Assembly (NCBI GenBank): GCA_008632985.1
Contig: QPGO01000038.1
Location: 25,939 to 89,938 of the forward strand
Reading direction: 5' to 3'
Length of the DNA stretch: 64,000 nt
Source: Psammoneis japonica
Taxonomy: Eukaryota
Positions 6,471 through 35,248 of the stretch are shown here, piece by piece. Made by a program: the position numbers and the translations under genes. Each line of letters opens with the position of its first letter. Positions within the stretch are counted from its first letter, which is position 1. The notes beneath the pieces are model-generated. The model saw only the letters and a list, made by a program, of their open reading frames with translations. It was not told the origin of the DNA and did not search any database.

Positions 6471-6474
6471 ACTC

Positions 6475-6800
6475 GGAGCATGCCAACAAAGCCTTGATGG
6501 CATTTTGGCACTCAACTCAGGCGAGCCATCCAGCTCAGGCCTGTGCCCAGGGCTCAAGGGCATCAACGCCTTTCAGTTTTCTTGATCTCCAACTCAGCAT
6601 CAGCCAATGCCCGCTTGACACAAAGGTCAGAGGACATGGCCCAGCGTGCCTTGCTTTCCAAGTCAGACAACTGGCACTTTCTGATCTGGGCGCCCAAGTG
6701 CTCCTTCGGCTCGCAGACACTTCTGTCCTTGAGTGTGCAGCCAGAGCTCATGCAACCCATGATCTTGATGTTGCTGACCACTGCCTGGGTTGTCACTCGG
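6475..6800 (-). mobile_element. Fragment of a second copia lineage (RT C-terminus)
   Basis: EPKEHLGAQI..WAMSSDLCVKRALAD..PLSPGHRPELDGSPEL; homologous to but divergent from the 8.4-8.6 kb RT. Confidence 0.7.
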
Positions 6801-9714: not shown

Positions 9715-10287
9715 GATGCAAGGGAGTTCCCCTTGAAGGACCGGCAAGCATCTTTTGTGATGATTGTGGTGTTGTGAAGAATGTGAGTGTGCACGAGTCG
9801 GTTTTGCGTGAGAAGCACAATGCCATCAACCGCCATGTTGTGCGAGAAGCGGTCGCAGCAGGAGTTGTTGGTGTTGGCAAGGAGGACACGAAAACAAACT
9901 TGGCAGATCTGCTTGCGAAAATGGTCACAGGAGAGCGGCGATGGAAGCTTTGCTCGTGTGTCTTTTGGCAATGTTCTGACACCAAGGCCAGGCACCTGTG
10001 GCTTGCACCCACGTGTCTCGGCCTCCCAAGCCAGCACGTCTGGTGGTTTAATTTGGGTTTTGTGGTTTGCCTCTCTGTGAGAGGATGTTGCAGGTTTAGA
10101 TGAATCGGCATTGTCGTTGCCGTTTCGCGGGGACCGAGTGAATCTGGATGGAGAAGCAAGAGAGGACAATGTTGTGATTGGTGGCTGGCTGGCACATGTG
10201 AATCGAGTGGTGCTCTGGCAACACACTCACAATCCAATCAGGTTTGGGTTTGAGTTGACAGTGTTGTGACTTTCCATCAGATGCAAG
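9158..10287 (+). repeat. 565-bp tandem duplication of the copia RNase H end and 3' region
   Basis: ggagttccccttgaaggacc at 9158 and 9723. Confidence 0.9.
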
Positions 10288-10342
10288 GCATCGTGCTTGT
10301 CCTTTCGTTGCATTGAGATTCACTCGGTTGCAAGGAAAACAA

Positions 10343-10602
10343 GGCCTGTTCCAGCTCCAGGTGCTCCGCGCGGGTTCGATTCCCATCATTTGGAAATTTG
10401 TGCATTTGGCACAGTTGACTTTTTCCAAATCCGTTTTTTGCCAAATCGAATGGTGAGTGTGCAATTTGCGTGCATTTTTGGGTGTGCACTCACCTTTTGA
10501 TTGTTGAAACAATCAAAATTGAAGGAGTCAATTGCGCTAAACTGCGCAGAAAATCGGCCTCTCGAGTGATAAAAAGCAGATCACCTGGAGCTGGAACAGG
10601 CC
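10343..10602. mobile_element. MITE family B (260 bp), 21-bp TIR, 4-bp TSD ACAA, inserted into a satellite unit
   Basis: GGCCTGTTCCAGCTCCAGGTG...CACCTGGAGCTGGAACAGGCC flanked by ACAA on both sides. Confidence 0.92.
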
Positions 10603-11645
10603 ACAAACATGTCTTTTCAAGGAAAACAATCATGTCTTTTCAAGGAAAACAAGCATGTCTTTTCAAGGAAAACAGTCATGTCGTTTCAAGGAAAACAAGC
10701 ACGTCATTTCAAGGAAAACAAACATGCATTTTTAAGCTGCAATGAAAACAAACATGTCTTTTCAATGAAAACAAACGTGATTTCAAGGAAAACAAACACG
10801 TCTTTTCAAGGAAAACAAACACATCTTTTCAAGGAAAACAAACATGTCTTTTTGAGGAAAACAAACATGCTGCACCAAGGAAAACAAACATGTCCTTTCA
10901 AGGAAAACAAACATGTCTTTTCAAGGAAAACAAACGTGTTGTTTCAAGGAAGGAAAAAACAAAATCTTTCAAGGAACACAAACATGTCTTTTTAATTTGC
11001 AAGGAAAACAAACATGTCATTTTAAAGAAAACAAATGTGTCTTTTCAAGGAAAACATGCGTGTCGTTCCAATGAAAACAAACATGTTGTTTCAAGGAAAA
11101 CAAACATGTCGTTTCAAGGAAAACAAACATGTCTTTTCAAGGAAAACAAAAGTGTTGTTTCAAGGAAGGAAAACAAACAACTTCTTTCAAGGAAAACAAG
11201 AAACATGTCTTTTTAAATTGCAAGGAAAACAAACATGTCTTTTCAAAGAAAACAAACATGTTGTTTCAAGGAAAACAAACATGTCGTTTCAAAGAAAACA
11301 AACGTGTTGTTTCAAGGAAAACAAACACATTGGTTCAAAGAAAACAAACATGTCTTTTCAAGCAAAACAAAAGTGTTGTTTCAAGGAAGGAAAACAAACA
11401 AGTCATTTCAACGAAATTGGAAAACAAACATGTCTTTTCAAGGAAAACAAACATGTTGTTTCAAGGAAAACAAACACGTCATTTCAAGGAAAACAAACAC
11501 GTTGTTTCAAGGAAAACAAACATGTCATTTCAAGGAAAACAAGCACGTCATTTCAAGGAAAAAAACATGTTCTTTCAAGACATGTTCTTTCAAGGAAAAC
11601 AAACATGCCATTTCAAAGAAAACAAACAAAGGAAAACAAACACGC
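10603..11645 (+). repeat. 23-bp satellite array
   Basis: Tandem units with higher-order variants shared with the 12.9-14.3 kb array. Confidence 0.92.
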
Positions 11646-12610
11646 ACTGGATTTGATCCGAAGGAACCAGTGAATGACGAATCTGTTTTCAATTCGAACG
11701 CGGGCTGGACCGAGTTTTACGGGGACATTGAGGAGGAGCTGCTGCCACGGGCACCAAAGCCTCGTGGCAACCCGACAAACATCCATGCTTTTGTTGATGC
11801 TGACCATGCAGGGAATGTCATCACTCGCAGGTCGCATGGTGGAATTCTGATGTTTGTCAATGAAGCGCCAGTGACATGGTTCAGCAAGCGGCAGAACACG
11901 GTGGAATCGGCGATGTTTGGAAGTGAGTTGGCTGCGATGCGGACTTGCAAGGAGTTGATTGTCGCTTTGCGTTGCAAGCTTTGCATGTTTGGAGCTCCCC
12001 TTGAAGGACCGGCAAGCATCTTTTGTGATGATCGTGGTGTTGTGAAGAATGTGAGTGTGCCTGAGTCGGTTTTGCATGAGAAGCACAGCGCCATCAACCG
12101 CCATGTTGCGCGAGAAGCGGTCACAGCAGGAACTTTTTGTGTTGGCAAGGAGGACACAGAAACAATCTTGGCAGATCCACTCACAAAAATGGTCACAGGA
12201 GAGCGGCGATGGAAGCTTTGCTCGTGTGTCTTTTGGCAATGTTCCGACACCAAGGCCAGGCACCTGTGGCTTGTGCCCACGTGTCTCGGCCTCCCAAGCC
12301 AGCATGTCTGGTGGCTTAATTTGGGTTTTGTGGTTTGCCTCTCTGTGAGAGGATGTTGCAGGTTTAGACAAATCGGCACCGTCACCGCCGTTTCGCGGGG
12401 ACCGAGTGAATCTGGATGGAGAAGCAAGAGAGGACAATGTTGTGATTGGTGGCTGGTTGGCACATGTGAGTCGAGTGGTGTTCCAGCAACACACTCACAA
12501 TCCAATCAGGTTTGGGTTCAAGTTGACAGTGTTGTGACTTTCCATCAGACGCAAGGCATCGTGCTTGTCCTTTCGTTGCATTGAGATTCACTCGGTTGCA
12601 AGGAAAACAA

Positions 12611-12870
12611 GGCCTGTTCCAGCTCCAGGTGCTCCGCGCGGGTTCGATTCCCATCATTTGGAAATTTGTGCATTTGGCGCAGTTGACTTTTTCCAAATCC
12701 GTTTTTTGCCAAATCGAATGGTGAGTGTGCAATTTGCATGCATTTTTGGGTGTGCACTCACCTTTTGATTTTTGAAACAATCAAAATTGAAGGAGTCAAT
12801 TGCGCTAAACTGCGCAGAAAATCGGCCTCTCGAGTGATAAAAAGCAGATCACCTGGAGCTGGAACAGGCC
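12611..12870. mobile_element. MITE family B copy (260 bp)
   Basis: Same TIRs, TSD and flanks as 10343-10602. Confidence 0.92.
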
Positions 12871-14300
12871 ACAAACATGTCTTTTCAAGGAAAACAATCA
12901 TGTCTTTTCAAGGAAAACAAGCATGTCTTTTCAAGGAAAACAGTCATGTCGTTTCAAGGAAAACAAGCACGTCATTTCAAGGAAAACAAACATGCATTTT
13001 CAAGCTGCAATGAAAACAAACATGTCTTTTCAATTAAAACAAACGTGTCGTTTGAAGAAAGGAAAACAAACATGTTGTTTCATGACATGTTCTTTCAAGG
13101 AAAACAAACATGTCATTTCAAGGAAAACAAACATGTTCTTTCAAGGAAAACAAACATGTCTTTTCAAGAAAAACAAACGTGTCGTTTCAAGGAAAACAAA
13201 CACGTCATTTCAAGGAAAACAAACATGTCATTTCAAGGAAAACAAACATGTCATTTCAAGGAAAACAAACATGTCATTTCAAGGAAAACAAACATGTCCT
13301 TTCAAGGAAAACAAACATGTCCTTTCAAGGAAAACAAACATGTCATTTCAAGGAAAACAAGCATGTCTTTTCAAAGAAAACAAACATGTCTTTTCAAGGA
13401 AAAAAACACGTCATTTCAAGGAAAACAAACACGTCTTTTCAAGGAAAACAAACACATCTTTTCAAGGAAAACAAACATGTCTTTTTCAGGAAAACAAACA
13501 TGCTGCACCAAGGAAAACAAACATGTCCTTTCAAGGAAAACAAACATGTCTTTCAAGGAAAACAAACGTGTTGTTTCAAGGAAGGAAAAAAACAAAATCT
13601 TTCAAGGAACACAAACATGTCTTTTTAATTTGCAAGGAAAACAAACATGTCATTTTAAAGAAAACAAACGTGTCTTTTCAAGGAAAACAAGCGTGTCGTT
13701 CCAATGAAAACAAACATGTTGTTTCAAGGAAAAAAAACATGTCGTTTCAAGGAAAACAAACATGTCTTTTCAAGGAAAACAAAAGTGTTGTTTCAAGGAA
13801 GGAAAACAAACAACTTCTTTCAAGGAAAACAAGAAACATGTCTTTTTAAATTGCAAGGAAAACAAACATGTCTTTTCAAGGAAAACAAACATGTTGTTTC
13901 AAGGAAAACAAACATGTCGTTTCAAAGAAAACAAATGTGTTGTTTCAAGGAAAACAAACATGTCGTTTCAAAGAAAACAAACACGTTGGTTCAAAGAAAA
14001 CAAACATGTCTTTTCAAGCAAAACAAAAGTGTTGTTTCAAGGAAGGAAAACAAACAAGTTCTTTCAACGAAATTGGAAAACAAACATGTCTTTTCAAGGA
14101 AAACAAACATGTTGTTTCAAGGAAAACAAACACGTCATTTCAAGGAAAACAAACATGTTGTTTCAAGGAAAACAAACACATCATTTCAAGGAAAACAAGC
14201 ACATCATTTCAAGGAAAAAAACATGTTCTTTCAAGACATGTTCTTTCAAGGAAAACAAACATGTCATTTCAAAGAAAACAAACAAAGGAAAACAAACACA
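12871..14300 (+). repeat. 23-bp satellite array
   Basis: Tandem units. Confidence 0.92.
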
Positions 14301-14305
14301 CACTG

Positions 14306-16335
14306 GATTTGATCCGAAGGAACCAGTGAATGATGAATCTGGTTTTAATTTGAACGCGGGCTGGACCGAGTTTTACGGGGACATTGAGGAGGAGCTGCCG
14401 CCATGGGCACCAAAGCCTCGTGGCAACCCGACAAACATCCACGCTTTTGTTGACGCTGACCATGCAGGGAATGTCGTCACTCGCAGGTTGCATGGCGGAA
14501 TTCTGATGTTTGTCAATGAAGCGCCAGTGACATGGTTCAGCAAGCGGCAGAACACGGTGGAATTGGCGATGTTTGGAAGTGAGTTGGCTGCGATGCGGAC
14601 TTGCAAGGAGTTGATTGTCACTTTGCGTTGCAAGCTTCGCATGTTTGGAGCTCCCCTTGAAGGACCGGCAAGCATCTTTTGTGATGATCGTGGTGTTGTG
14701 AAGAATGTGAGTGTGCCTGAGTCGGTTTTGCGTGAGAAGCACAATGCCATCAACCGCCATGTTGCGCGAGAAGCGGTCGCAGCAGGAACTTTTTGTGTTG
14801 GCAAGGAGGACACAGAAACAATCTTGGCAGATCCACTCACAAAAATGGTCACAGGAGAGCGGCGATGGAAGCTTTGCTCATGTGTCTTTTGGCAATGTTC
14901 CGACACCAAGGCCAGGCACCTGTGGCTTGTGCCCACGTGTCTCGGCCTCCCAAGCCAGCATGTCTGGTGGCTTAATTTGGGTTTTGTGGTTTGCCTCTCT
15001 GTGAGAGGATGTTGCAGGTTTAGACGAATCGGCACTGTCATTGCCGTTTCGTGGGGACCAAGCGAGTCTGGATGGAGAAGCAAGAGAGGACAATGTTGTG
15101 ATCGGTGGCTGGTTGGCACATGTGAGTCGAGTGGTGTTCCAGCAACACACTCACAATCCAATCAGGTTTGGGCTCAAGTTGACAGTGTTGTGACTTTCCA
15201 TCAGACGCAAGGCATCGTGCTTGTCCTTTCGTTGCATTGAGATTCACTCGGTTGCAAGGAAAACAAGGCCTGTTCCAGCTCCAGGTGCTCCGCGCGGGTT
15301 CGATTCCCATCATTTGGAAATTTGTGCATTTGGCGCAGTTGACTTTTTCCAAATCCGTTTTTTGCCAAATCGAATGGTGAGTGTGCACTTTGCATGCATT
15401 TTTGGGTGTGCACTCACCTTTCGATTTTCGAAACGATCAAAATTGAAGGAGTCAATTGCGCCAAACTGCGCAGAAAATCGGCCTCTCAAGTGATAAAAAG
15501 CAGATCACCTGGAGCTGGAACAGGCCACAAACATGTCTTTTCAAGGAAAACAATCATGTTTTTTCAAGGAAAACAACATGTCTTTTCAAGGAAAACAGTC
15601 ATGTTGTTTCAAGGAAAACAAGCACGTCGTTTCAAGGAAAACAAACATGCATTTTTGAGCTGCAATGAAAACAAACATGTCTTTTCAATGAAAACAAACG
15701 TGTCGTTTCAAGAAAGGAAAACAAACATGTTGTTTCAAGACATGTTCTTTCAAGGAAAACAAACACGTCATTTCAAGGAAAACAAACATGTTCTTTCAAG
15801 GAAAACAAGCATGTCTTTTCAAGAAAAACAAACGTGTCGTTTCAAGGAAAACAAACACGTCATTTCAAGGAAAACAAACATGTCATTTCAAGGAAACAAA
15901 CATGTTTTCAAGGAAAAAAACATTTTCAAGGAAACAAACATGTTTTTCAAGGAAAAAATTCTTCAAGGAAAACAAACATGTCTTTCAAGAAAACAAACAT
16001 GTCTTTTCCAAGAAAACAAACATGTCATTTCAAGGAAAACAAACATGTCATTTCAAGGAAAACAAACACGTCTTTTCAAGGAAAACAAACATGTCTTTTT
16101 GAGGAAAACAAGCACGTCCTTTCAAGGAAAACAAGCACGTTGTTTCCAGGAAGGAAAACAAACATGTTGTTTCAAGGAAGGAAAACAAACATGTTGTTTC
16201 AAGGAAAACAAACACGCTGTTTCAAGGAAAACAAACATGTTGTTTCAAGAAAAACAAACATGTCATTTCAAGGAAAACAACAAGGTTGTTTCAAGGAAAA
16301 CAAACAAGTTGTTCAAAGGAAAACAAACATGTTTT
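14306..16335 (+). repeat. Segmental unit, copy 3 (copia RNase H/3' end + MITE B + satellite 15527-16335)
   Basis: Colinear with 11649 onward. Confidence 0.85.
15267..15526. mobile_element. MITE family B copy (260 bp)
   Basis: Same TIRs, TSD and flanks as the other two copies. Confidence 0.92.
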
Positions 16336-20340: not shown

Positions 20341-20730
20341 CAAATTGGAAATGCAGGACAACCAGGACCGCAGCATCAACTTGGCATTTGTTGACAATGA
20401 ATGTCAAAAAGCCGCAGCGATGTGTCATTGTTGATTGCAAAGAGTGGACTGAATTCATTGTGTTTGTCACTTCAAACAATGAAGCAAGCACACAACGTGA
20501 AAATTGTCAACGACATTGATTGTCAGCTGTTGCAGTGAACAAAGGCACATGCCAAATGGGAAAAGAGGGGGGCGCTCACACAGTTAAAGTTGTTTTGTTG
20601 CAGACAAAAAGAGGTCTCCACAGTTGAAAAAAATCACCCATCACAGATTAAAATTTGTTGCCAGCTGCACAACTGACAAGGTTTGAAACCATGAAAATTT
20701 CATCTGTCAAAGAAATGAAAATCACAATGA

Positions 20731-21495
20731 AAAGGCAAGGCTGGATCACCATGTTGCACCCTCTGATGGACCCCGCAGCATCAAATTTTCTGGTGTCATC
20801 TGTGCTGCGTTCTGTGCTGTGATTTTGATTTGACAATCTTGTGAGCACCCCAAAGAACCATTTGCTTTGCTTTTTTCTTGGGATGACCAAAACCAAATTT
20901 GTCTTTTCTTTTCTGCAAAGGCTGCTGACTCATGATGCATTTCTTTAGGATCTGAGCCAACTTTTGCTCAACCAAGCACAAATGCTCCTGCATCGTGGTG
21001 CTGACCAAGACACCGTTGACCAAATCTGTGGTCAATTTGATCAGCTCCTCACAATGCCAACTTTGGACATGCCAACTTTTGAGCAAAGCTCAGCACACCA
21101 ACTTTCTGGCAAAACTTGGCATGCCAACTTTGGGGCAAAACTTGGCACACCAACTTTGAAGCAACACTTGGCATGCCAACTTTGAAGCAACACTTGGCAT
21201 GCCAACTTTGCTGCAAAACTTGGCATGCCAACTTTGAAGCAAAACTTGGCATGCCAACTTTGGAGCAAAACTTGGCACCCCAACTTTGGGGCTCAGCTTG
21301 GTTTTGCAATGGGATTCCCCAAAATTCCCTGGAATTGCCACCTTTTGCCATGCTTTTCCATGGGAAGCATGAGCTCCCGGGGAGTTGCCACAAATGCTGC
21401 CTTGTCATTGCACATGCTGTTTGAAGAATGACCATTGAGAGCTCAGTTTTGTTTGCTTGCCAAACATCTTGCATGCCAACTTGTGTTGACTTGTG
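20731..21495 (+). repeat. Dispersed repeat, copy 1 (copy 2 at 33927-34725)
   Basis: Direct alignment starting aaaggcaagg..ggatcaccatgttg. Confidence 0.88.
21054..21290. repeat. 26-bp tandem array with palindromic core TTGGCATGCCAA
   Basis: Unit ccaactttgaagcaacacttggcatg, roughly 9 copies. Confidence 0.88.
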
Positions 21496-23090: not shown

Positions 23091-23840
23091 ATCTTGATCT
23101 TTTCATGGCAACAATGAGAGGAGTGGCACTGTTCGACAGTGCAGCTGTCGTTTGGGTCGTGTTGAGACAGCCAGGCACTCCATTTTTCTCTGTGACATTG
23201 CACAAATTGTTGTCAGCAACATTGAAATTTGAAAACATGTTCATGTGCAACAACGAATGGTCCAACTTGCTTTTTGACATGGTTGTCATTGCGTTTGAAT
23301 GGAGATGACATCCTGCATTTTGACAGCAAATAAAAAGCGCAATGTTCATTGTGGATGCCAGATAAAAAATCAAAATGCAGGTGCGTCATGCCTGCAAGAA
23401 TCATCCCAATCTGGAAGACAATGCAATGTTTGCCAGTTTCCGCCATTTTTTGCGTGTTGTTCTTTTTTTCCCTTCTCATCCACAAGACAAGGACGACGAG
23501 CATGAGGCTTGATGAAGGCCCTGTCAACATTGTCTGATTTACAATGGATGGAAACCCTCTTCTCTTTCCCGGTTGTGGCCAAAGTTTTTTGCAAATGGCC
23601 TGCCATTGGAGACACTCGCCGACATGTTGCTCAGTTGCCCAAGAGTTGCAAACCCAAGATCCAATCCCAGATCAAAGCGACATTGCTGCCACAACAGAGG
23701 GGCCACCCAAAGAAAGTGGCAGTTCTTCCTCTTCGTCCTCTGATGATGACGAATCCCATCCGAGGCAATCAACTCGCAGCAGATTCCCAAGATCTTCAAT
23801 GAGTGATCGAGCAGCAGCCCTTTGTTCCCCTCCCCTGATG

Positions 23841-24236
23841 GACACGTTCCAGATGCAGGTGGGAATCCATGTGACATTGGGCCCGCAGACTTCTACGTGC
23901 GAGCTCCGCAGCAAAATTGTGCGGCAATTAAAATGTCAATGATCGCCAACAGAAAATGAGGCAATTTTGCGAATGCACAAACTCGCACATGATTGAAGTG
24001 CATCATTTTTTACTTGGCCAGTTACATTCTTCAGACATTGAAGAATGCAACTGGCGCATTGTTGTCTCCACAAATTTGTCATGTGAAACGTCTGGGGCTT
24101 CGCAAAACAGCGAGTCTGGACAATTTTTTTTAAATGTCACATGCAGAAATCCACGTGCGAAACATGCGACGGATGACAAAAATCATTGTTGTCACATGTC
24201 AGTGCTGCGAGCTCCCACCCAGGGCTGGAACGCGTT
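23841..24236. mobile_element. MITE family A subfamily 1 (396 bp), TSD GATG; inverted relative to 805-1200
   Basis: GACACGTTCCAG...CTGGAACGCGTT with GATG on both sides. Confidence 0.92.
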
Positions 24237-24456
24237 GATGACGCACTGCACGGAATGGATGACATGTCCTCCATTTCATCAAACCACAGCACGCAAGGAG
24301 CGGAACTTTTGGCAATGAACGATTTGGATGTTGGCAGTGTTCAATCCTTTGCTGCAGTGTTGGACGTGACAATGGAGGAGGAAGAGGACATCAACGATGA
24401 GGATCAATGTTCGGGGACCAGGCATGATGCTCCTGCAGAAGAGGCCTTGGCTTCTA

Positions 24457-27182
24457 CCCCATGCACGCACTGGGCGCTGAAAAGAAGATGTGTTGCGACT
24501 TTGTCGACGCGTTCCAGCCCCAGGCGGGACTCCTTGTGACATTGGGCCCGCAGAATTCCACGTGCGAGCTCCGCAGTACGAGAATTTAATCAATGGATGT
24601 GTTTGTCTTCAACATCAAATAAACGGCCAAGTTTGTGGTGCAATTGTGCCTCTTGCCACTCGACGTTTTTGCAACTTCACCTGCCCTGCGCGATTCTTAA
24701 GACATTGTAGAATCGCGCTGCAACAAAAAATGTCAAAAGTTGTTGGACGGATCGCTCAACAAGCGCACCGTAAAATGACACAAAATGTCAAAAAAATCAC
24801 GTAGAAATCTACGTGCGCGACATGCGATGAGACTCAAAAAACTGTCGATGTCACAATTCAGCAGTGCGAGGTCCCACCTGGACCTGGAACGCGTCTGTCG
24901 TTGTGAAAATTGTGAGCTGGTTTAGAGCAGAGAAAGTGGGATCGTGCGAACAGGGAATCTTGCCAAATCCCCATTCGTTCGCATTTGGATCGCATCAAAT
25001 CAATCGTGCGTTCGCATTGTGGATTGTGCGAGTCAAGCCATCACGCGCTGTGCACGAGTGATGTCATCGTGTGGAATCACGCCACCATCGTGGGCCAGAC
25101 GATGGGCTGGTGTGCTTCACACGGATGCTCTCTTGGCGTCCTTCTGGAATTTCCTAAGACCCAGAGCCACGCCCTCCTGTGGTCGTGCTTCCCAGGTGCG
25201 CGTCAACAATGCCACGTTGTCACGCACAAGAGGCTTGTGCACGGTCTCGCCGTGTTGTCCAGTGGCGAGGCATGCTGCACACTCCCCCATGATCAGGGCC
25301 GTTAAGTGACAGGATGTCTTACTGGTGACAGGGTACAATCTGCCGTAGATTGTACGTAGCTATCAGCGCTCCGTTCTGGACACGCAACGTGCCGTTGTCA
25401 CATACACGGACAACTCTGGCGGGTCCTGCATAGCTGTCAGAACCGTATTTAGAGGATTGTTCCTGTTTGATAAGTGCCAATTGCCCTACGGTATGTTGAT
25501 ACTCCTTGCGTTTCTGATTTTCACGCTTGTTATTTTGATTGGATAAGCTTCTGCTTTCTGGTTTCTATGTGCTTCCACTTAGTACGATGAGCAATAGATA
25601 AAACCGCATCGCGTCCGAAGACCAATTGCATGGGACTTGCACGCGTGGTCGTGTGTACCGTAGCTCTAATAGCGAAGGGCAATGGACATTTCCGCACGTG
25701 TCTCACCTGGATGACACAGTGTCTCGTGGCACCATTCAGTTAGCGGAACCTGCAATGACTGCGGCACTGCGATTTTGTCCTTATGACAGATTAACTGTCG
25801 TGATGACCCTCCCCCACGATGCGCGCGAATGGAGTGGTCGGACGAGTCCTTGGCTCGTGAGAGTAGGCGCTTGTCCTTTTGTTGTTCTTTTTGAATGCGC
25901 TTGAAGCTGACAGGCAGAGATGCATCGTCTTGCGCGTCTGCATTAAAAGCTTCATGCAAAGGACGACTCGATGGAGTGCCTTGTGCACCCAGATTGGCCT
26001 CGGAAGGCAAGCTGGGTGCCAGCCGAAGGCGACCAAGAGCGCCAGTGACTGGGTTGTGGGCACCCTCAACACAGCGTGATCAATTCTGGGACCGCATTCT
26101 TCGCATGTCAACCGCCAGCACATGACGCGCTCGGCATTGAACACTTTGCACGTAAGATTTTTATGATCAGTGCATGTGAGCACACAATGACCCAGGAGAG
26201 TCGTTCGAAATTCTTTCAACGTCTCCACAATGGCGAGCAATTCTCTCTCCGTTGTTGCACAATTTAATTGCGCACTGTTGAGCTTTCTGCACAAAAGGCG
26301 ATGGGTTTGTCATCTTGGGACATGGCTGCTCCCAATTGATGTTTAGAGGCATCGGCATGTGTCTCAAAGGGTTCATTAAAATCAGGATGTGATGACAAAA
26401 CATCATCCGACATCACCCGTTTGACGGTTTCGAACGCCTCGTCTTCAACGGACGTCCACTCCCACTTAACAGTCTCGCTTGCGAGTCGTGTTGGCGGAGC
26501 CAAGACTTCAGAACATCTGATCCACGCGTCACGGCAGCAGCTCACCATGCCAACAAATGACCGCAGGTCGCGTTTGTTGGCTGGGGTCGCGATTCGCTCA
26601 ATGGCATCGACTTTGTTGGGCATTGGTCGCACTCCGTCTCTGTTGACCAGACAACCCAAGTGTTCCAATTGGGTTTGACAGAAATGAGATTTGTCGGTCC
26701 TGCCAACATTTCACAGTTTTGTTTCTGCAGATTTCGTTGCAACATCACTGTGCCCCATGCATGCACTGGGCGCTGAAAAGAAGATGTGTTGCGACTTTGT
26801 CGTTGTGAAAATTGTGAGCTAGTTTAGAGCAGAGAAAGTGGGATCGTGCGAACAGGGAATCTTGCCAAATCCCTGTTCGTTCGCATTTGGATTGCATCAA
26901 ATCGATCGTGCCTTCGCATTGTGGATCGTGCGAATCAAGCCATCACGCGCCATGCACGAGTGATGTCATCGTGTGGAATCACGCTGCCATCGTGGGCCAG
27001 ATGATGGGCCAGTGTGCTTCACACGGATGCTCTCTTAGCATCCTTCTGGAATTTCCTAAGACCTGGAGCCATGCCCTCCTGTGGTCGTGCTTCCCAGGCA
27101 CGCGTCAACAATGCTGCGTTGCCACGTGCAAGAGGCTCATGCACGGTCTCGCCGTGTTGTCCAGCAGCAAGGCACACTGCAC
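24457..27182 (-). mobile_element. Internally deleted Ty3/gypsy LTR retrotransposon with two 430-bp LTRs and TSD TTCTA
   Basis: LTRs at 26753-27182 and 24457-25280 (430 bp after removing the MITE); PPT tgggggag next to 25281; RT end HLGCLV..GVRPMPNKV; RNase H HADASKHQLGA, TERELLAIVE, TDHKNL; integrase WCHETLCHPG and C-terminus QLVFGRD..NGTLRV; TTCTA at 24452-24456 and 27183-27187. Confidence 0.9.
24506..24895. mobile_element. MITE family A subfamily 2 (390 bp), TSD TGTC, inside the gypsy 3' LTR
   Basis: GACGCGTTCCAG...CTGGAACGCGTC; empty site in the sister LTR at ~26795-26810. Confidence 0.93.
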
Positions 27183-30100
27183 TTCTACTCCCTCTTTGAC
27201 AAATCTTGACGGAGCTTGTGCAGAGTTGTGCAAGAAGCTCATTGACACACGTGGTGCTCCCCTGCAATTGCACGACTGCATTGTTGATTTCATTGAGAGG
27301 CACACTGGCAACAGCAACATCAAGCTTGGTGCAGTTCTGCCAAGGAGAAAAGAGTTGATGCGCACCTTAAACAAGCATTTCCCTCTTCCACCCAGCGAGT
27401 CTATTCCTGTCACTCTAGAAACAAAAAATTTCAAACCGGTTTGCCAAAACGAGTGTCAGTGCCAAGATGGGATTTCACAAAGGTTTGGGAACAGTTTTTA
27501 CTCGATCCTCACCTGTGGTGCAGCAGAGAGAATGTGGCCAATCCAGACAATCCTTTTGGGAAGTGCAAAGCGAAGGGACCGGATGACAAGTGCCTTTTGG
27601 CAGGTGAGTGGTGCAGGCGCAGTTACGAAGAACGGACAACTGACCCGGAGAAACAATTTCTCGAGTGCAATGTCATTTACATTGACAAGACTGGCAGGAC
27701 ACAAGGGATGGGATCACATTGCTGAGAACCAGTGATCATGACCTCTGCACATGTTGCCTTCAACAAATGGTCAGACAAGAGTGTCTGGAAACCAATTGGT
27801 TGTCTCCCGGATTTGGAAAAGATGTCGTCATCTGCGGCAAAGAATCTCTCAAACAATCGCAAGGCGGAGAAGGGACGCTCGTCAAGAGACTGCCACACTT
27901 GCTTGCGTGTCATTTTGGAGCCACTTTTGGAAGTCATGAGAAAAGGAGGCATGAAAACATGCGTGCGACGAGGGGATGAGATGCGACACCTCCACGCAAT
28001 CCCACTGATCGTTCTCATCATGGGAGACACAAAAAGCGGCGACTGTCTCGTTGGACGATGCAGAGGTCACAACTGTCGTCAACGTTGCTGTCATTTTTGC
28101 CTGACTGGCTTCAACAAACTGGACGACCCATGGATTGAATGCGAGTTCATCTGAGGACTGGATCTCCACCAAGTGCAAACTAAGGCCAACAACGACAACA
28201 GATCAGACCAAGAAAGGAAGCACTGGTTGGGCATCTTGCATTGCCTCAAGCAACACAACGCACCAACCAACTGTCTTTTTGAGGCAGACTTTGGCACACA
28301 ACCATGCGGCATTGCCCTTGCAACAGCAAGCGACATGATGCATCTCTTTGAAAATGCACCTTGAAAAGGGCAATCAATTCATTTGTAGACAGCATGACAC
28401 CTGTGGTTGCAAGTGAGGTGGACAGCATGGTGGAAAGGATTTTCAGCAATCACCGCTCAACTTGCAAAGCATCCTTTTTGCGAACAAACTTCAAAGGAGG
28501 AGCAACGTCGCTCACCTTCCTCAACTCTCACCACTGGGCTGGAATGGCTTTTGTTTTCTACCTTCTCCTGTCAACCAGCGAGGGACGAAACGCATGTGAG
28601 TCATGCTTCCTTGACGAGGATGCAGACGAACCCATTGTTCCAGAGAATCGCAAGACACCCAAAGCAAACTTTGAGAGTTGCTGCCAACCCAGTGAGCACT
28701 TGGACGACTCTGACGATGAAAGGTCGGAGGAGTCCAAAGAGGGTGACTGGGACGAAAATGAGGATGAGAAAGAGGAGAGTGAGGCTGAGGATGGTGACGA
28801 CAACCAAAACAAGAAAAAATGCAAGGGAAAAAGACTCAACTGCAGCATCCGGCAATTCATTCAATTGCTCGAGGACCTTCTTGTCTTCCACGCATGGTGC
28901 AGGCTGGGCAATCCACCCATCACAAGCGTGACTCCCAGTTCATCTGTTCAGAAAACAAACAAGAAAATCCGTCTCCTCATTGACCGGATGGTGCAATTCG
29001 TCCCGCGAACAGAAGGATGCGGGTGGAAGCTTCAAAAGCTTCATGAAACACTCCATCTCCCAGTGTTTCTTTGTTGTCACCGACATGCGATGAACTTTGA
29101 CGCAGGCTTGGGGGAATGTCTCTTGAAAGACTTTTTCAAGCTGCCGTCATCTGCTGCACAACAACGCAACCTCGACAGTTTTCTGAAGCAGGTCGTGTCG
29201 TGCATGGAGGACCAAATGAGGCTCAACGCCGCAATTTCAGCTGACAGTTGGATTTTGCCAACTGGGAAAAAGGAATCATCAAGAGTCAGGATGGACAATC
29301 ACACGCTGGGAGGAAGTGCGTTCACTCTCACCTGCAACCGAGGGATCGGCGCTGTGACATTTGAGTGGAACAGTGAGCATGCTCATTGCCAAGTTCGTCC
29401 GGTGTTGCCAAACTTCATGTTGGAAAAGTGGGAGGATTGTGTTGGTGAAGACAGTGAAAATGCACACCTGACTTGTAAGACAGAGTTTTACAATGCAAGC
29501 GGGAGGGATGCGCACTGTGCACACCCCGATTTCAAAAGCGAAGGACCATGGCATGACTTTGCCCATGTGACCTTTGGCACACGAAAGGGCGATCAACAGT
29601 TTCCCTCCCGTTTGCTGTGTTTCTTCGAACAGGAAGACACAGGATCGATTTTTGCAGTTGTCCATCCAACCACTTGTCAAGCTGACCAGAGAACTGTGAG
29701 GCAACGGCATCAGCACACAGACTTGGTCAGTCGCTGGCAGCTTGATCACAAACGAAACAACTGGCTTTCAATGCCTGAGAAGACTCAGCACTCACCCAAG
29801 TTACGTGTTGTCCCCACAGAAGCAATTGGGGACAATGTTTTGGTTTGTGAAGAATGTCCAGGAGCAGCAGAAGCACAAGAAAAGGCCCTATTTGTTTGGG
29901 CCACACAGGACAGAAGGAAGTGTTGGTCAGATTTGTTTCTAAAACTGGATGCGCACATCAATCCATCATTCACTCACAGTGTGTGCATTTTTAGAGCAAT
30001 TGCTTCCTCACAGATTCTATGCAGTGTCCACTTGCACGGTCCATCTAGTCATCCTGCGCCATGAAATGTTCCCTGGCAGCCACAATCGCCTGCTGAAAGT

Positions 30101-30950
30101 CGGCGCTGTGGTCAGGCTGGTTGACAGCCACCAATTGTGCCTCAATTTGCAATGCCAGCTCATGGATTTCTACATGTGCGTTAAGGTGCGTGAAGAACAT
30201 GTGGGCACCTTCAAGTGACGCATGCAAACAATCATGAAGAAACATTCGGAAATGGGGACAGCACAGAGAGAAGTCAGAAACATGGATCCAAAACAAAGCA
30301 ACACAAGATGAAGGCAACGGCGACGGGATCGATGAAAAGAAGGATTCGGATGGAAAGATGCCGGAGACAGTGAAAACAGGTGGTGCCAAGACAAAGAAGG
30401 AAGAGAAAAACAGGATGGGAAAAATGAAGAAAGAGAAAAAGAAGCAGACGACACGACGTCAAGAGGGGAGCAGCGATGCAATTCTGCGTTTCGAGGGACC
30501 TCTTCCTCTCGATGATGTTCACCCAAATGCAAGAAATGCAGTGTGGCTTTTTTGGAACGGTGACGAGGAAACATCCAACACGGCAGCGGCACGTGCATTT
30601 GAAATTCTTGCAAGAGAGCGGACAAGACACATGGAATGAAAAGGACGATGCGGATGAACAGGCCAATTGGAGCACAGTTGTTGATTGAACAATCAGTGCA
30701 CACTTTACATGATGAAAATTTCATTGCATGCAATTGCAACGTTTGGCTTGTCATCAAAGATCGTCAGTTGTTGTGAAAAAGGCTGAGCATGAAAATTAAA
30801 AAGCATCTGTGTTCAAACATGAAGAACAGCAGGAGATCAACAATTGGCCAAACAACAAAAACCATCATGTGCAGACAAGCAGATTTCACAACATGGCAAC
30901 GCATTTTTGTCATGTGTGCAGATGTTGCGACATCGTGCACTCTGATGTGT

Positions 30951-31476
30951 CATCTCATGTTGACTTTTGTTGACTCGTGTTGACTTTGGTTGACTTGTTT
31001 TGACTCTGCCCAGTTGCATGTGTGTGATGCCCATGCAAAGCTGTCTGCATGCATGATGTTTGTCACATGCGACTGGTGGCAAGCAAGGTGCCAGACTGTC
31101 AGTTTTGTCCAGAGACACTTCTGCACTCATTGATGATTTGTGTTAACTCATGTTGACTCATGTTCCCTTTTGTTGGCTTGTGCTTGCTTTTGTCAACTTT
31201 TGTTGACTTGCGTTGACTCACTTTTGCTTGACAAGTTTTGCGACCACTTTTGGCACATTGGCATTTCACAATTTGGTTGATGATTTTGGCAAGAAAAGAG
31301 AAAGTTGACACTCAGGACAAACCCATTGGGGGCACATGCAAATGCCCACAGCAACAAAAATTTAGCCAAGGAGGGCCCTGGAAGAGAAGGGGGAGGTGGC
31401 ACAGGTGGTGCCATTGGCTCTGGAGTTGGGCATGCTGTGTTGAAAATTCCACAGACAAAGGAGTTGCCTTCGACGA
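30951..31476 (+). repeat. Dispersed repeat, copy 1 (copy 2 at 34727-35248)
   Basis: Direct alignment; contains short (t)gttgact repeats. Confidence 0.85.
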
Positions 31477-31499
31477 TGCGCAAACACGATCACTTGTGC

Positions 31500-32900
31500 T
31501 GCAACCAGGGAACAGTGAGTTTGATGGAGGCCAGCCATTGTCTTGGACATTGGCGTTTGCATCTGTGGCAAGAAGAGTTGGTTGATGCAGATGGATCTGT
31601 CGCCAAGTCTTCAGCGGATTTGATGCCATGTGCCAACGGGTTGAAGACAATCACTCCCCTTCCAGTGGGAGGTTTCAGTGCACCTTTGCATTGGTCATGT
31701 GAACAGGGACAGTCAGCAGGAGCCAGAAAACGAAAAGCGGTGTCGAGCACATTCCAGGGTGCACAAGCCTTGTGTGGACATCTGCCAGAAACAGGAGGAA
31801 CGTTGATTGCACCAGCGCCATTCACCAGCGTTCCTTCTTCCCGTGAACTGTTGGCAACAGCAGAAGGATCCTCGGACATGCTAAAATGGTTGCTCGCATG
31901 TGCTTTGTGACAAAACTGACAATGAGGCAAGCATTGACAGAACAGTTTCCATCTGCAGAACAGGCATGTTCCCAAAACATTGAACAGGTGCCACTGTGGT
32001 CTCCAACACGAAATGTGCAGGAACGTTCAGGCCAATCCACACAAACACTGAGTTTGCCAGCTTCAACCCACACAAGCTTCTGAAGGCCGCCATGGCAAAA
32101 CCAATGACATTCTTCAGACAACGACTGCAGCTTGCACTCAAATGTGTTGTCTCCTCAACTTCATGATTTTCTCCCTTGGACGACATTGCCACAAAGTGGG
32201 TGTGGCATCCACAGGAAGAATTGGGAGGAGGGCAGCAGGTGTGCATGTCAAGCCACACTTGATTGTGTGGCTGCTTTGTGCCATTGGGATTGAAGTCATC
32301 ACACCATTCTTGCACCCACAGATGCAACACAAAGCCAGACGCGTTCCAGGTCTAGGTGGGACCTCGTACCACTGAACTGTGACATCGACAGTTTTTTGAA
32401 TCACGTCGTATGTCGCGCACGTAGATTTCTACGTGATTTTTTCGACATTTTGTGTCATTTTACGGTACACTTATTGAGCGATCCGTCCAACAACTTTTGA
32501 CATTTTTTGTTACAGCGCGATTCTATAATGTCTTAAGAATCGCGTAGGGCAGGCGCATTTGCAAAAACGTCGAGTGGCAAGAGGCATAATTGCCACAAAC
32601 TTGGCAGTTTATTTGATGTTGAAGATAAATGTGTCCATCAATTAAATTCTCGTACTACGGAGCTCGCACGTAGAATTCTACGGGCCCAATGTCACACGGA
32701 GTCCCACCCAGGACTGGAACCCGTCGCCATTGACATCTTCTTTGAGTTAGATGAACAAGGAATGTGCTGCCGGTGTGCATGACATGGCAGGTTGGGAATC
32801 TTGAACAATGACGTCTGCATCAAAAAAGAACTTTTCAAATTGTGCGGCTTTTCCAACTCATTTGCAACCACGTCTTCAAACAAAACACACAGGAATGACT
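31500..32900 (-). mobile_element. Degenerate fragment of a second Plavaka/CACTA-like transposase, interrupted by a MITE
   Basis: EWCDDFNPN..VW..PP..AMSSKGENHEVE and DWPER..GDHSG resemble diatom transposase motifs. Confidence 0.45.
32338..32725. mobile_element. MITE family A subfamily 2 (388 bp), TSD GCCA; least mutated copy
   Basis: GACGCGTTCCAG...CTGGAACCCGTC with GCCA on both sides; reverse complement of 24506-24895. Confidence 0.93.
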
Positions 32901-33884
32901 GCCACTGTCGGTTTTCCTGGGAACAGGATGAGGCAAATTTGGCACAATGGCACGTTTGCTGGAGAAATGCAACATTTCAAAATCTTTCACAGAAGTGGGG
33001 ACACGAGTCCGATGAAAAATGGACAAGTCTGGATCATGGCTGTTTGTGGCTTGCAGCGTGCATTCTGCCCCAACAATTCACGTTGATTGGACTCAATTGG
33101 AGGCATCCTCTGAATGTGGTTGAACAGAGCAAAAATTTGCATTTTGCTCTGATTGTCTTGCACACAGAGCATGTCGCTCTGACTGTGGCTTGAACAGAGC
33201 AAAGCCACAATTGATTTTTTGGCTCTTGTGAACGGAGCAAAATGCTCTGTTTTTTTTTGTTTGGAGCAAAAACAACTCATTTAGAGTGACTCTCATTTGC
33301 AGTGGCAGTGGTGTGTCTTCCCAGACTCAAACGGCACACTTGGTCCACTTTTCACAGTGTTTGCCATGTCTGAGTCTCTGTTGCTTCCAGGAGGTCACAA
33401 TGGCCATCACCGTCATCCCCACGTCCACATGGTTGTGTCCAGAAACTGCAACAACTCAGAACTCCGCTGTCCAGATGACATGTGGTGAGAAGATTCATCT
33501 CAAGGGCATGAATTCCACCCTTCAATGGTGCCTGCAGGCTTTTCACACTGGGTTTCTCTGTCAACCACACACTCGTGGCATGTTGCCCAGTTGCCCGGCC
33601 ACATGGAATCTGCCATGGCTGATGTTGTCTCACCTGCATGCAAAATTGAGGGCCAACCAATGCCAACAATTTCCTTCAGACACAGACATCAAAGATTGCC
33701 AACAAACACTGTGGACAACAGCTGCCCATCCCAACACCTGAGCCCAAATCACTGCCCAAGCCCTGCCCACCTTGGCACCAGCCTTGGCTCTCACAACTTC
33801 CTCTCCCTTTTTCTCTCCCTCTTTGACCCCAACCCCAATGCTGGCCCTGAGACCCCCAACCCCCAAACTCCAACTCTGCCCCCC

Positions 33885-33925
33885 NNNNNNNNNNNNNNNN
33901 NNNNNNNNNNNNNNNNNNNNNNNNN
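33885..33925. other. Assembly gap (41 N)
   Basis: Run of n. Confidence 0.99.
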
Positions 33926-33926
33926 A

Positions 33927-35248
33927 AAAGGCAAGGCCGGATCACCATGTTGCGCCCTCTGATGGACCCCACTGCATCAATTTTTCTGGTGTCATCTGTG
34001 CTGTGTTCTGTGCTGTGACTTTGATTTGACAATCTTGTGAGCACCCCACAGAGCCATTTGCTTTGCTTTTTTTCTTAGAACAACCAAACTAAATTTGTCT
34101 TTTCTTTTCTGCAAAGGCTGCTGACATCCTTGCTGCCACCAGAAGAGGCAAGCTCTCCCTCATGAAGCATTTCTTTAGGATCTGAGCCAACTTTTGCTCA
34201 ACCAAGCACAAATGCTCCTGCATCATGGTGCTGACCAAGACACCGTTGACCAAATCTGTGGTCAATTTGATCAGCTCCTCACAATGCCAACTTTGGACAT
34301 GCCAGCTTTTGAGCAAAGCTCAGCACACCAACTTTCTGGCAAAACTTGGCATGCCAACTTTGGGGCAAAACTTGGCACACCAACTTTGAAGCAACACTTG
34401 GCATGCCAACTTTGAAGCAACACTTGGCATGCCAACTTTGCTGCAAAACTTGGCATGCCAACTTTGAAGCAAAACTTGGCATGCCAACTTTGGAGCAAAA
34501 CTCGGCACCCCAACTTTGGGGCTCAGCTTGGTTTTGCAATGGGATTCCCCAAAATTCCCTGGAATTGCCACCTTTTGCCATGCTTTTCCATGGGAAGCAT
34601 GAGCTCCCAGGGAGTTGACACAAATGCTGCCTTGTCATTGCACCCACTGTTTGAAGAATGACCATTGAGAACTCAGTTTTGTTTGCTTGCCAAACATCTT
34701 GCATGTTGATTTGTGTTGGCTTGTGTCATCTCATGTTGCTTTTGTTGACTCGTGTTGACTTTTGTTGACTTGTTTTGACTCTGCCCAGTTGTTTGTGTGT
34801 GGCACCCATGCAAAGCTGTCTGCATCTGTGATGTTTGTCACATGCGACTGGCAGCAAGCAAGGTGCCAGACTGACAGTTTGTCCAGAGACACTTCTGCAC
34901 TCATTGATGACTTGTGTTAACTCATGTTGACTCACACTCCCTTTTGTTGGCTTGTGCTTGCTTTTGTCAACTTTTGTTGACTTGCATTGACTCACTTTTG
35001 CTTGACAAGTTTTGCGACCACTTTTGGCACATTGGCATTTCACAATTTGGTTGATGATTTTGGCAAAAATCAGAAAGTTGACACTCAGAACAAACCCATT
35101 GGGGGTGCATGTAAATGCCCACAGCAACAAAAAGTCAGCCAAGAAGGGCCCTGGAAGAGAAGGAGGAGGTGGCACAGGTGGTGCCATTGGCTCTGGAGTT
35201 GGGCATGCTGTGTTGAAAATTCCACAGACAAAAGAGTTGCCTTCAATG
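33927..35248 (+). repeat. Composite of repeat copies: 20731-21495 (with the 26-bp array at ~34284-34520) joined to 30951-31476
   Basis: Direct alignment; junction at ~34726. Confidence 0.82.

What the first reader, a model, noticed from the sequence alone, without database searches (positions are those of the whole stretch)
24457..27182. The two LTRs of one gypsy insertion differ by reciprocal CA/TG swaps, so mutation occurred in the chromosome after integration
LTRs are identical at insertion (established). These 430-bp LTRs differ at about 11 sites as CA versus TG (cccCAttc/cccTGttc, aggTGcgc/aggCAcgc, gcaTGct/gcaCAct), retain many CpGs and have almost no TA. Inference: ancestral TA was hit independently on either strand, which argues against RNA editing or RT errors as the source and would inflate LTR-based age estimates. 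A CG ancestor cannot be excluded for individual sites.
Basis: partly seen in the sequence, partly recalled or inferred. Interest (0 to 1): 0.72.

Follow-up and report, generated by a model that had tools for sequence, protein, structure and literature searches.

The report
TA-erasing mutation between retrotransposon twin ends
The two originally identical ends of a jumping gene in a diatom differ mainly because an unusual process turned TA letter pairs into TG or CA after it landed in the chromosome; sister copies confirm that TA was the original state and show two internal zones that repeatedly escaped this process.

Summary
Confirmed. The two 431-bp LTRs of one internally deleted Ty3/Gypsy insertion (4-bp TSD) differ at 35 of 429 aligned bases; 22 of these form 11 CA/TG swaps. 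Among 29 sister LTRs, every swap site reads TA in 2-10 copies and CG in none, and lightly mutated copies read TA at 9-11 of 11. So TA was changed to TG or CA on either strand, in the chromosome, after insertion. The process prefers TAY, shows no strand runs, and explains 72% of the differences in 25 further LTR pairs, so raw LTR dating is invalid here. The signature was published for viral inserts of Bigelowiella natans (2026 preprint), and this scan noted it before on other DNA of this genome. Added here: two zones of the element recurrently escape both TA loss and CpG decay. One has the same edge within 47 bp in 7 copies. The spared stretches mostly keep their own copy's subfamily markers, which favours sparing in place over pasting-in; the window's own 390-bp patch stays ambiguous. 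The enzyme is unknown; a TadA/ADAT-like DNA deaminase acting on silenced chromatin fits best.

The parts
24451..24454 (.). Target-site duplication CTTC, left copy
   Evidence: family TSD length is 4 bp in L031, L032, L033; empty-site joint
24455..24505 (-). 3' LTR, outer 51-bp piece (terminal dinucleotide reads TA on +; other copies read TG)
24506..24895 (.). 390-bp TIR element inserted into the 3' LTR after integration, TSD TGTC (24502-24505 and 24896-24899); itself TA-eroded relative to its sister at 32326-32735
24900..25279 (-). 3' LTR, main 380-bp piece; carries the left allele of all 11 swaps
25280..25289 (-). Polypurine tract next to the 3' LTR
   Evidence: sequence
25290..25678 (-). TA- and CpG-spared patch (integrase C-terminal region and short 3' UTR): 19 of 28 easily mutated TA sites kept versus 3 of 94 in the rest of the element; 24 of 24 CG kept versus 117 of 135
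25677..25678 (.). Deletion junction: about 550 bp (integrase core) missing relative to longer copies
25679..26692 (-). End of RT, RNase H and integrase zinc finger, heavily TA-mutated (Tyr columns read His/Cys)
26685..26750 (-). 66-bp leader after the 5' LTR, joined to RT by a second deletion (about 2.1 kb relative to L032: nearly all gag, protease and most of RT)
26751..27181 (-). 5' LTR, 431 bp, TG...CA ends; carries the right allele of all 11 swaps
27182..27185 (.). Target-site duplication CTTC, right copy

Best explanation
SHOWN (about 0.93): after this Ty3/Gypsy element integrated, a chromosomal process changed A:T pairs of TpA steps to G:C, on either strand, one site at a time and independently in each LTR and each copy. 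TA became TG or CA; opposite choices in the two LTRs give the swaps. A site stops being a substrate once changed. SHOWN: in this family two internal zones recurrently escape both this process and CpG decay. INFERRED (about 0.6): the process acts on silenced, CG-methylated chromatin, and the spared zones are stretches that stayed unmethylated or open in some copies. INFERRED (about 0.55): the chemistry is adenine deamination to hypoxanthine in DNA by a TadA/ADAT-fold enzyme that needs a 5' T and prefers a 3' pyrimidine, fixed as G at replication. The likely effect is permanent inactivation of repeats, a chemically inverted counterpart of RIP. The number given is for the whole chain.
For: Ancestral TA. 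Spectrum over 297 TA sites in the heavily mutated parts of 32 copies: TA 961, TG 1816, CA 1880, CG 14. CG is about 0.3%, against roughly 30% if the two columns changed independently (my arithmetic from the 21% kept). Fitted hazards: TAC 2.41, TAT 2.66, TAG 1.06, TAA 0.69, with a 5' A about twice as favourable. Non-TA A>G changes are about 100-fold rarer (AA 0.91%, CA 0.76%, GA 0.41%) but show the same 3' pyrimidine bias (1.0-1.1% versus 0.23-0.26%). A TAC preference is described for TadA and TadA-derived editors (PMC8065034, passages). No strand runs: 0.498 versus 0.495 +/- 0.007. Repeat-restricted: TpA o/e 0.05 in 1-24450, 0.60 in the gene block 37000-58500. CpG loss is 11/785 and 15/708 in the spared zones versus 940/7147 outside. 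Spared stretches keep their copy's subfamily transversion markers: 60 of 90 pairs sharing a marker inside also share one outside, against 158 of 213 in controls and 0.42 +/- 0.11 for random donors, 10 of 500 simulations reaching the observed value. The genome holds TadA/ADAT-like HAE/PCxxC frames and at least five near-complete C5-methyltransferase domains. The same TpA spectrum was measured de novo in B. natans mutation-accumulation lines (10.64898/2026.01.13.699255).
Against: No enzyme is identified. TadA/ADAT genes are expected in any eukaryote for tRNA editing, so their presence is weak evidence. Sequence cannot tell an A lesion from a lesion of the paired T. Methylation was not measured; CpG decay is a proxy. 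Lightly mutated copies lose about 9% of CG (139 of 1490, summed) but only about 14-27% of TA, so CpG decay and TA loss are not tightly coupled. The window's own patch shares one transversion (ref 1000) and one transition (ref 1044) with L072 only, and no transversion marker outside it, which fits pasting-in. The marker test rests on 47 markers and non-independent pairs. Zone-1 copies were picked by similarity to the window's patch, so their frequency is unknown. The only read set gave contigs of at most 71 bp laid here, so single sites were not confirmed in reads.
Confidence: 0.6

Rival explanations
1. Same mutation pattern, other chemistry: the T of TpA (in R-T-A, best R-T-A-T) is modified, for example oxidised to a form that pairs with G, by a chromatin-guided enzyme.
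For: TA>TG on one strand is T>C on the other, so all counts fit equally.
Against: No Tet_JBP match in G000, but the control rang nowhere, so this is not absence. The T-A-Y rule matches a known adenine-deaminase preference.
Confidence: 0.2
2. The spared zones were pasted in later from little-mutated sister copies or from cDNA (gene conversion), not protected in place. For zone 1 the fixed edge could be the end of a sub-genomic or stalled cDNA.
For: Sharp edges, and a fixed edge at the RNase H-integrase linker in 7 copies. The window patch ends at a deletion junction, the adjoining ref 1692-1879 stretch is not spared (1 of 10), and it shares two alleles with L072 only.
Against: Patches differ from each other by about 2% and fall in several subfamilies, so there is no common donor. 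Marker linkage across patch edges is near the control level and above random donors. Patches have less CpG loss (1.4-2.1%) than the lightly mutated copies that could be donors (about 9%). Zone-2 edges vary on both sides around a shared core.
Confidence: 0.3
3. Error-prone gap filling by a Pol-eta-like polymerase after excision of methylated or deaminated cytosines produces A>G at WA motifs.
For: WA is an A:T hotspot of somatic hypermutation linked to Pol eta (PMC6423074, passages). AA>AG is the highest non-TA class (0.91%), and TA loss co-varies with CpG loss across patch edges.
Against: About 79% of TA sites changed against 0.91% of A in AA, and A transversions are only 0.15%. There is no strand clustering, which patch synthesis should leave. 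That Pol eta's TA:AA ratio is only a few-fold is recalled, not from a call.
Confidence: 0.07
4. Assembly or base-calling artefact: modified bases misread, or reads of different copies mixed.
For: Run X1 holds only 0.41 of the sampled words.
Against: Column-wise miscalls would give CG often; it is 14 of 4671. A majority consensus would erase minor subfamily alleles, yet patches carry them. All 30 bins are covered, with 987 of 1327 laid contigs at least 99% alike. The spectrum equals one measured de novo in another alga.
Confidence: 0.03
5. Ancestral CG with ordinary 5mC deamination gave the swaps.
For: CG>TG/CA decay is real here: 6 of the 35 differences and 13% of CG sites.
Against: CG at 0 of 11 swap sites in 29 copies. 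True CG sites keep CG in 885 of 959 cells and produce no swap. Tyr columns read His/Cys.
Confidence: 0.01
6. RNA editing (ADAR-like), cDNA editing or RT errors before integration.
For: ADAR prefers a 5' U (stated in the preprint's discussion).
Against: It would mark one strand and be copied into both LTRs. Here both strands are hit equally and interleaved, the LTRs differ, and non-LTR DNA (the TIR element, the flanks) has the same signature.
Confidence: 0.01

Closest known systems
TpA-specific hypermutation of integrated NCLDV and virophage DNA in Bigelowiella natans (Mettrop et al., bioRxiv 10.64898/2026.01.13.699255; parts 1-3 of 5 read, plus term search)
   Same: A>G / T>C confined to TpA, giving TpG or CpA by strand; local, in silent foreign DNA; TpA-poor coding sequences there are enriched for RT and DDE domains; an ADAT-like deaminase is proposed but untested.
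   Different: There: a rhizarian alga, a single-copy viral region and a virophage region, de novo rates from MA lines, NCLDV-region TpA only moderately depleted (Rho 0.45). Here: a diatom, multicopy LTR and TIR elements, near saturation (o/e 0.05), polarised by LTR pairs and sister copies, with a TAY rule, and with recurrent zones spared from both TA and CpG loss. The preprint's main text has no occurrence of 'diatom', 'LTR', 'CpG' or 'retrotranspos'.
Repeat-induced point mutation (RIP) of ascomycetes (RIPCAL abstract opening seen in search listing; rest recalled)
   Same: Repeat-restricted, dinucleotide-specific, chromosomal transitions on both strands that kill mobile elements and distort LTR dating.
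   Different: Opposite direction (RIP makes TpA from CpA; this destroys TpA). No strand runs. Copies of one family range from lightly to almost fully mutated, and zones are spared despite full homology, so homology alone does not look like the trigger.
TadA / ADAT2-3 adenosine deaminases and TadA-derived adenine base editors (PMC8065034, passages)
   Same: A>G outcome, 5' T requirement, TAC-type preference.
   Different: Natural substrates are tRNA. No natural chromatin-guided genomic activity of this scale is established in what I read; no activity is shown here.
VANC anti-silencing of VANDAL transposons in Arabidopsis (PMC5735166, abstract and outline)
   Same: Parts of transposon copies lose methylation in a sequence-dependent way.
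   Different: No element-encoded factor is known here. No shared motif between the two zones was found. The zones lie mainly in coding sequence. Methylation is inferred only from CpG retention.
Ty3/Gypsy LTR retrotransposons
   Same: Paired TG...CA LTRs, 4-bp TSD, PPT, PR-RT-RH-INT order in longer copies.
   Different: This copy is non-autonomous: two internal deletions and a TIR insertion in its 3' LTR.

Membership tests
Ty3/Gypsy LTR retrotransposon | Two direct LTRs with TG...CA ends and a short TSD | tested here: met
   431-bp LTRs, TSD CTTC; the left outer end reads TA instead of TG
Ty3/Gypsy LTR retrotransposon | Domain order protease-RT-RNase H-integrase | tested here: met
   Pfam on stop-free stretches of family member L074: protease (below cut-off), RVT_1, RT_RNaseH, then Integrase_H2C2 and rve (rve below cut-off); RT_RNaseH_2 in the window
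Ty3/Gypsy LTR retrotransposon | Polypurine tract before the 3' LTR | tested here: met
   25280-25289
Ty3/Gypsy LTR retrotransposon | tRNA primer-binding site | not tested
   66-bp leader present; not compared with tRNAs
B. natans-type TpA hypermutation | Changes almost only A>G/T>C at TpA, both strands | tested here: met
B. natans-type TpA hypermutation | Local, in foreign or silent DNA, sparing host genes | tested here: met
   TpA o/e 0.05-0.13 in repeat blocks versus 0.60 in the gene block; silence itself not measured
B. natans-type TpA hypermutation | De novo rate about 1000-fold raised, active in some lines only | not testable with these tools
   needs mutation-accumulation lines
B. natans-type TpA hypermutation | Same enzyme or pathway | not testable with these tools
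   enzyme unknown in both organisms
RIP | C:G>T:A transitions, mostly at CpA, raising TpA | tested here: not met
   direction is TA>TG/CA
RIP | Triggered by sequence duplication as such | tested here: inconclusive
   repeats are the targets, but equally homologous copies and zones differ widely in load
RIP | Strand-coordinated changes per round (recalled) | tested here: not met
   1803 of 3620 adjacent pairs same-strand, 0.498 versus 0.495 +/- 0.007 in 300 shuffles
ADAR/APOBEC editing of retroelement RNA or cDNA | One strand marked; LTRs identical at integration | tested here: not met
   TG 1816 versus CA 1880; 11 swaps between LTRs
Pol eta WA mutagenesis | Both AA and TA are hotspots | tested here: not met
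   about 79% of TA sites versus 0.91% at AA
TadA/ADAT-type deaminase as the mutator | 5' T requirement and TAC-like preference | tested here: met
   hazards TAC 2.41, TAT 2.66, TAG 1.06, TAA 0.69; reference preference
TadA/ADAT-type deaminase as the mutator | A candidate gene with HxE and PCxxC motifs | tested here: inconclusive
   9 PF00383 and 5 PF14437 matches; L081 and L083 carry both motifs; expected anyway for tRNA editing
TadA/ADAT-type deaminase as the mutator | Activity on chromosomal DNA | not testable with these tools
   needs assay or knockout
VANC-type anti-silencing (spared zones) | Repeated target motif in non-coding parts of the element | tested here: not met
   only 9-bp chance matches (E 3.3) between zones; zones mainly coding
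VANC-type anti-silencing (spared zones) | Local loss of DNA methylation | tested here: inconclusive
   CpG retention 98% in zones versus 87% outside is only a proxy

The most novel reading that the evidence does not exclude
Diatoms have a chromatin-guided DNA adenine-editing genome defence (a 'reverse RIP', possibly shared with chlorarachniophytes) that reads the silenced, methylated state. This retrotransposon family has two built-in zones (protease/RT linker; integrase to U3, with a fixed edge at the RNase H-integrase linker) that can switch heritably to an open state. Retained TA steps would then be a fossil, base-resolution map of past epigenetic state in each transposon copy.
Probability: 0.35. 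Interest if true: 0.87.

Novelty: new variant of a known kind. Interest (0 to 1): 0.68.

Why it matters
It gives directly polarised evidence (LTR twins plus sister copies plus protein outgroups) that TpA>TpG/CpA hypermutation acts on chromosomal DNA after integration, on ordinary retrotransposons, in a lineage far from the one alga where it was reported. It yields an enzyme fingerprint (T-A-Y, about 100-fold over other A, no strand runs) that makes a search for a natural DNA adenine editor testable. In practice, LTR divergence overstates neutral divergence 3.2- to 7-fold in this pair and 3.6- to 13.7-fold over 25 other pairs, and it saturates near 4-8%, so TE age landscapes in such genomes need TA and CG sites masked. 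The spared zones give exact coordinates where methylation and chromatin maps should flip if the process follows silencing.

Tried and rejected
(1) A word-index homolog search with the RT/RNase H piece found nothing (123 candidates, none at E <= 0.001). The HMMER search of representatives was used instead.
(2) Reads: no RNA holder listed. X1 gave only short contigs (longest listed 71 bp) and X2 nothing, so single swap alleles and the patch edge were neither confirmed nor refuted.
(3) Private transversions as a clock for patch age: equal inside and outside (17/8965 versus 35/15513, P = 0.67; 17 of the 35 come from L071). I first read this as protection, then rejected it as a discriminator, because a same-age donor carries the same clock.
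(4) 'Lightly mutated copies are as old as heavy ones' is not supported: the LTR pairs of L032 and L075 have 0 non-TA, non-CG differences in 862 bp versus 47 in 9688 bp. They may be younger.
(5) 'Patch edge lies at a fixed distance from the LTR' was dropped: L069's patch joins zones 1 and 2 across a deletion.
(6) 'Mosaic copies form one subfamily' was rejected: no diagnostic allele.
(7) 'Only low-copy DNA is spared' was rejected: the patch sequence has 129 candidates, 40 scored.
(8) Processive same-strand runs: none.
(9) A shared motif between zones: none above chance.
(10) Tet_JBP search blank with a silent control; not evidence.
(11) Literature: searches listed no paper on TpA hypermutation in diatoms or between LTRs; one search found only the B. 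natans preprint. The library lacks most subscription journals, and the preprint's supplements were not seen.
Rows left out: L033, L077, L054, L058, plus L095; L033, L054, L058, L077. The weak patches of L088, L094 and L107 were counted among controls.
Full report
Setting. The window lies in a 91-Mb, 597-contig eukaryotic assembly. A host gene (IGPS family) has diatom proteins as its only hits that show an organism (Attheya at 59% identity; a CCRYP-prefixed protein at 57%, which I recall as Cyclotella cryptica), so I treat the host as a diatom. The window splits into repeat blocks almost free of TpA (o/e 0.05 in 1-24450, 0.09 in 27182-36500, 0.13 in 59000-64000) and a gene block with ordinary TpA (0.60 in 37000-58500).

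Anatomy. The element lies on the minus strand. The 5' LTR is 26751-27181. The 3' LTR is 24455-25279, split by a 390-bp TIR element (24506-24895, TSD TGTC). The TSD is CTTC, and the PPT is at 25280-25289. Against a longer family member (L032) it lacks about 550 bp of integrase core and about 2.1 kb covering nearly all gag, protease and most of RT. A longer copy shows the order protease-RT-RNase H-integrase, so the family is Ty3/Gypsy. The family TSD is 4 bp in 3 of 3 copies where it could be read, and read contigs contain the empty site, so the two LTRs belong to one insertion.

Observation. The LTRs differ at 35 of 429 aligned bases: 11 CA/TG swaps (22 bases), 2 TG/TA, 6 CG-derived, 5 others. 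Of 29 TA-type sites, 11 are swapped, 14 changed to the same state in both LTRs, 2 changed in one LTR and 2 are kept. Two independent heavy copies would show 7.0 +/- 2.1 swaps, so the pair behaves like two independent draws.

The own-genome search gave 259 candidates, 40 scored, 30 fetched. In the 29 other LTRs every swap site reads TA in 2-10 copies and CG in none. By contrast, the six CG-derived differences sit at sites with CG in 25-27 of 29 copies. These copies were ranked by likeness to the right LTR, which biases them towards its state but not towards TA. Lightly mutated copies read TA at 10, 10, 11, 9 and 9 of the 11 sites. As an outside check, in 149 of 150 homologs aligned, the four columns with at least 40% Tyr read His or Cys here (positions 17, 58, 59, 108), and the stretch has 0 Tyr in 148 residues against 3.3% in the hits. 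The ancestral state is TA.

Spectrum. Over 297 TA sites in the heavily mutated parts of 32 copies: TA 961, TG 1816, CA 1880, CG 14. The near absence of CG shows that the first change removes the substrate. It also argues against column-wise miscalling. Hazards are highest for TAC and TAT (2.4-2.7), lower for TAG (1.1) and TAA (0.7), and about doubled by a 5' A. Other adenines change about 100-fold less (AA 0.91%, CA 0.76%, GA 0.41%) but keep the 3' pyrimidine bias. Neighbouring changes fall on the same strand no more than in shuffles (1803 of 3620; 0.498 versus 0.495 +/- 0.007). CG sites decay by about 13% in the same DNA.

Dating. In 25 of 25 further LTR pairs examined there are 644 differences in 10550 bp: 465 TA-class (137 swaps), 132 CG-class, 47 other (single differences were classed by their neighbouring base, so a few may be misassigned). 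Raw divergence is 3.6 times the non-TA and 13.7 times the non-TA, non-CG divergence; for the window pair 3.2 and 7 times. The 23 heavy or mosaic pairs all lie at 4.4-8.4%.

Beyond the finding: spared zones. Inside the window element, 25290-25678 keeps 19 of 28 easily mutated TA sites against 3 of 94 elsewhere (P about 1e-12) and 24 of 24 CG against 117 of 135 (P = 0.08). A search with this stretch brought up nine more copies that are heavily mutated except for a 1.1-1.6-kb stretch over integrase, 3' UTR and part of the 3' LTR (zone 1). These were selected for that property, so their frequency is unknown. Their inner edge, however, was not selected. In the 7 copies that contain it, site 1879 of the reference is kept in 6 and site 1926 changed in all 7, while heavy copies keep neither (0 of 21). 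The edge is thus fixed within 47 bp, in an A-rich linker between RNase H and integrase. A second zone, over the protease and PR-RT linker, is spared in 10 of 22 copies not selected for it (some lack that part), plus L066 and L069. Its edges vary on both sides. CpG loss is 11/785 in zone 1, 15/708 in zone 2 and 940/7147 outside.

Protection or pasting-in? Patches differ from each other by about 2% and belong to several subfamilies. With 47 transversion markers, pairs sharing a marker inside a patch also share one outside in 60 of 90 cases (0.67). Unpatched controls give 158 of 213 (0.74) and random donors 0.42 +/- 0.11, with 10 of 500 simulations reaching the observed value. Clear cases are L071, L072, L092/L098 and L103. 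This favours sparing in place, modestly, since pairs are not independent. Against it: the window's own patch shares two alleles with L072 only, ends at a deletion junction, and the adjoining stretch that is spared in other copies is not (1 of 10). Also, lightly mutated whole copies lose about 9% of CG but only 14-27% of TA, so CpG decay does not simply track TA loss. Equal private transversion rates do not discriminate.

Mechanism. Shown: post-integration, chromosomal, two-stranded, non-processive TA>TG/CA change with a T-A-Y rule, confined to repeat blocks, with zones co-spared from CpG decay. Inferred: targeting by silenced, methylated chromatin; the genome has at least five near-complete C5-methyltransferase domains among 27 matches, but methylation was not measured. 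Inferred: adenine deamination by a TadA/ADAT-fold enzyme, because a TAC preference is described for that family (PMC8065034, passages) and candidates exist. A lesion on the paired T cannot be excluded from sequence (one search is uninformative). A Pol-eta-type WA process fits poorly: WA is its hotspot (PMC6423074, passages), but AA is about 100-fold colder than TA here.

Comparison and novelty. Notes of this scan pointed to Mettrop et al. (bioRxiv 10.64898/2026.01.13.699255). I read parts 1-3 of 5 (abstract to conclusion) and searched its text; methods, references and supplements were not read. It measures the same TpA spectrum de novo in viral inserts of B. natans and proposes an ADAT-like enzyme; it does not mention diatoms, LTRs or CpG. 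So the kind is known. Its action on diatom retrotransposons, polarised by LTR twins, with a context rule and recurrent spared zones, was not found, within a library that lacks most subscription journals. It works like RIP in outcome but fails RIP's defining direction. The scan has noted the TA-erasing signature many times on other DNA of this genome (24 findings), the TAY rule, and single spared patches.

Verdict. Observation confirmed, interpretation supported. A new variant of a recently described kind; interest 0.68.

Noticed in passing
window 24506-24895, 32326-32735, 23836-24245, 806-1200: TIR (MITE-like) elements with GACGCGTTCCAG-type ends. The copy in the LTR is 89.9% identical to the inverted sister at 32.3-32.7 kb: 13 sites that are TA in the sister read TG or CA here, none the reverse, plus 5 swaps. 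It inserted after the LTR yet is already eroded, a nested clock. 23836-24245 matches only over 71 bp and pairs with 806-1200 at 94%.
   Followed up: partly
window 24455-24456: The outer end of the 3' LTR reads TA where all other copies checked read TG, extending the apparent target duplication to 7 bases in the read joint. A rare change in the opposite direction, or a local repair event.
   Followed up: no
L032 (C267), L074/L075 (C196), L076 (C406), L078 (C265): Uniformly lightly mutated copies sit on short contigs, often in tandem or nested arrays with intermediate TA levels in their surroundings; younger insertions or a less targeted compartment.
   Followed up: partly
L088, L094 (ref2 105-316), L005: Small spared spots of 7-9 TA sites inside the 3' LTR of otherwise heavy copies, near the variable outer edge of zone 1.
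   Followed up: no
window 1-214, 6070-6576, 10557-16291; 8817-14946: Arrays of a 23-bp satellite in both orientations, and about 2.3-2.8-kb tandem units, all TA-free.
   Followed up: no
window 20730-21327 and 33926-34557; 30964-31476 and 34739-35249: Local duplications (91-99% identical, one with a 26-bp array) inside TA-depleted DNA; 33-36 kb also has the lowest CpG of the window (o/e 0.08-0.25).
   Followed up: no
window 37571-41257 (-): Host gene with six DEP domains in a 1228-aa frame.
   Followed up: no
G000 C43, C10, C59, C78, C27, C297, C301: Many C5 DNA methyltransferase domains (27 matches), several broken copies clustered on C297, C10 and C28; possibly a mobile or expanded methyltransferase family.
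   Followed up: no
L071, L033, L078: Family copies inserted into each other in opposite orientation; in L071 the nested piece covering the zone-1 sequence is fully mutated while the host copy's zone 1 is spared.
   Followed up: no
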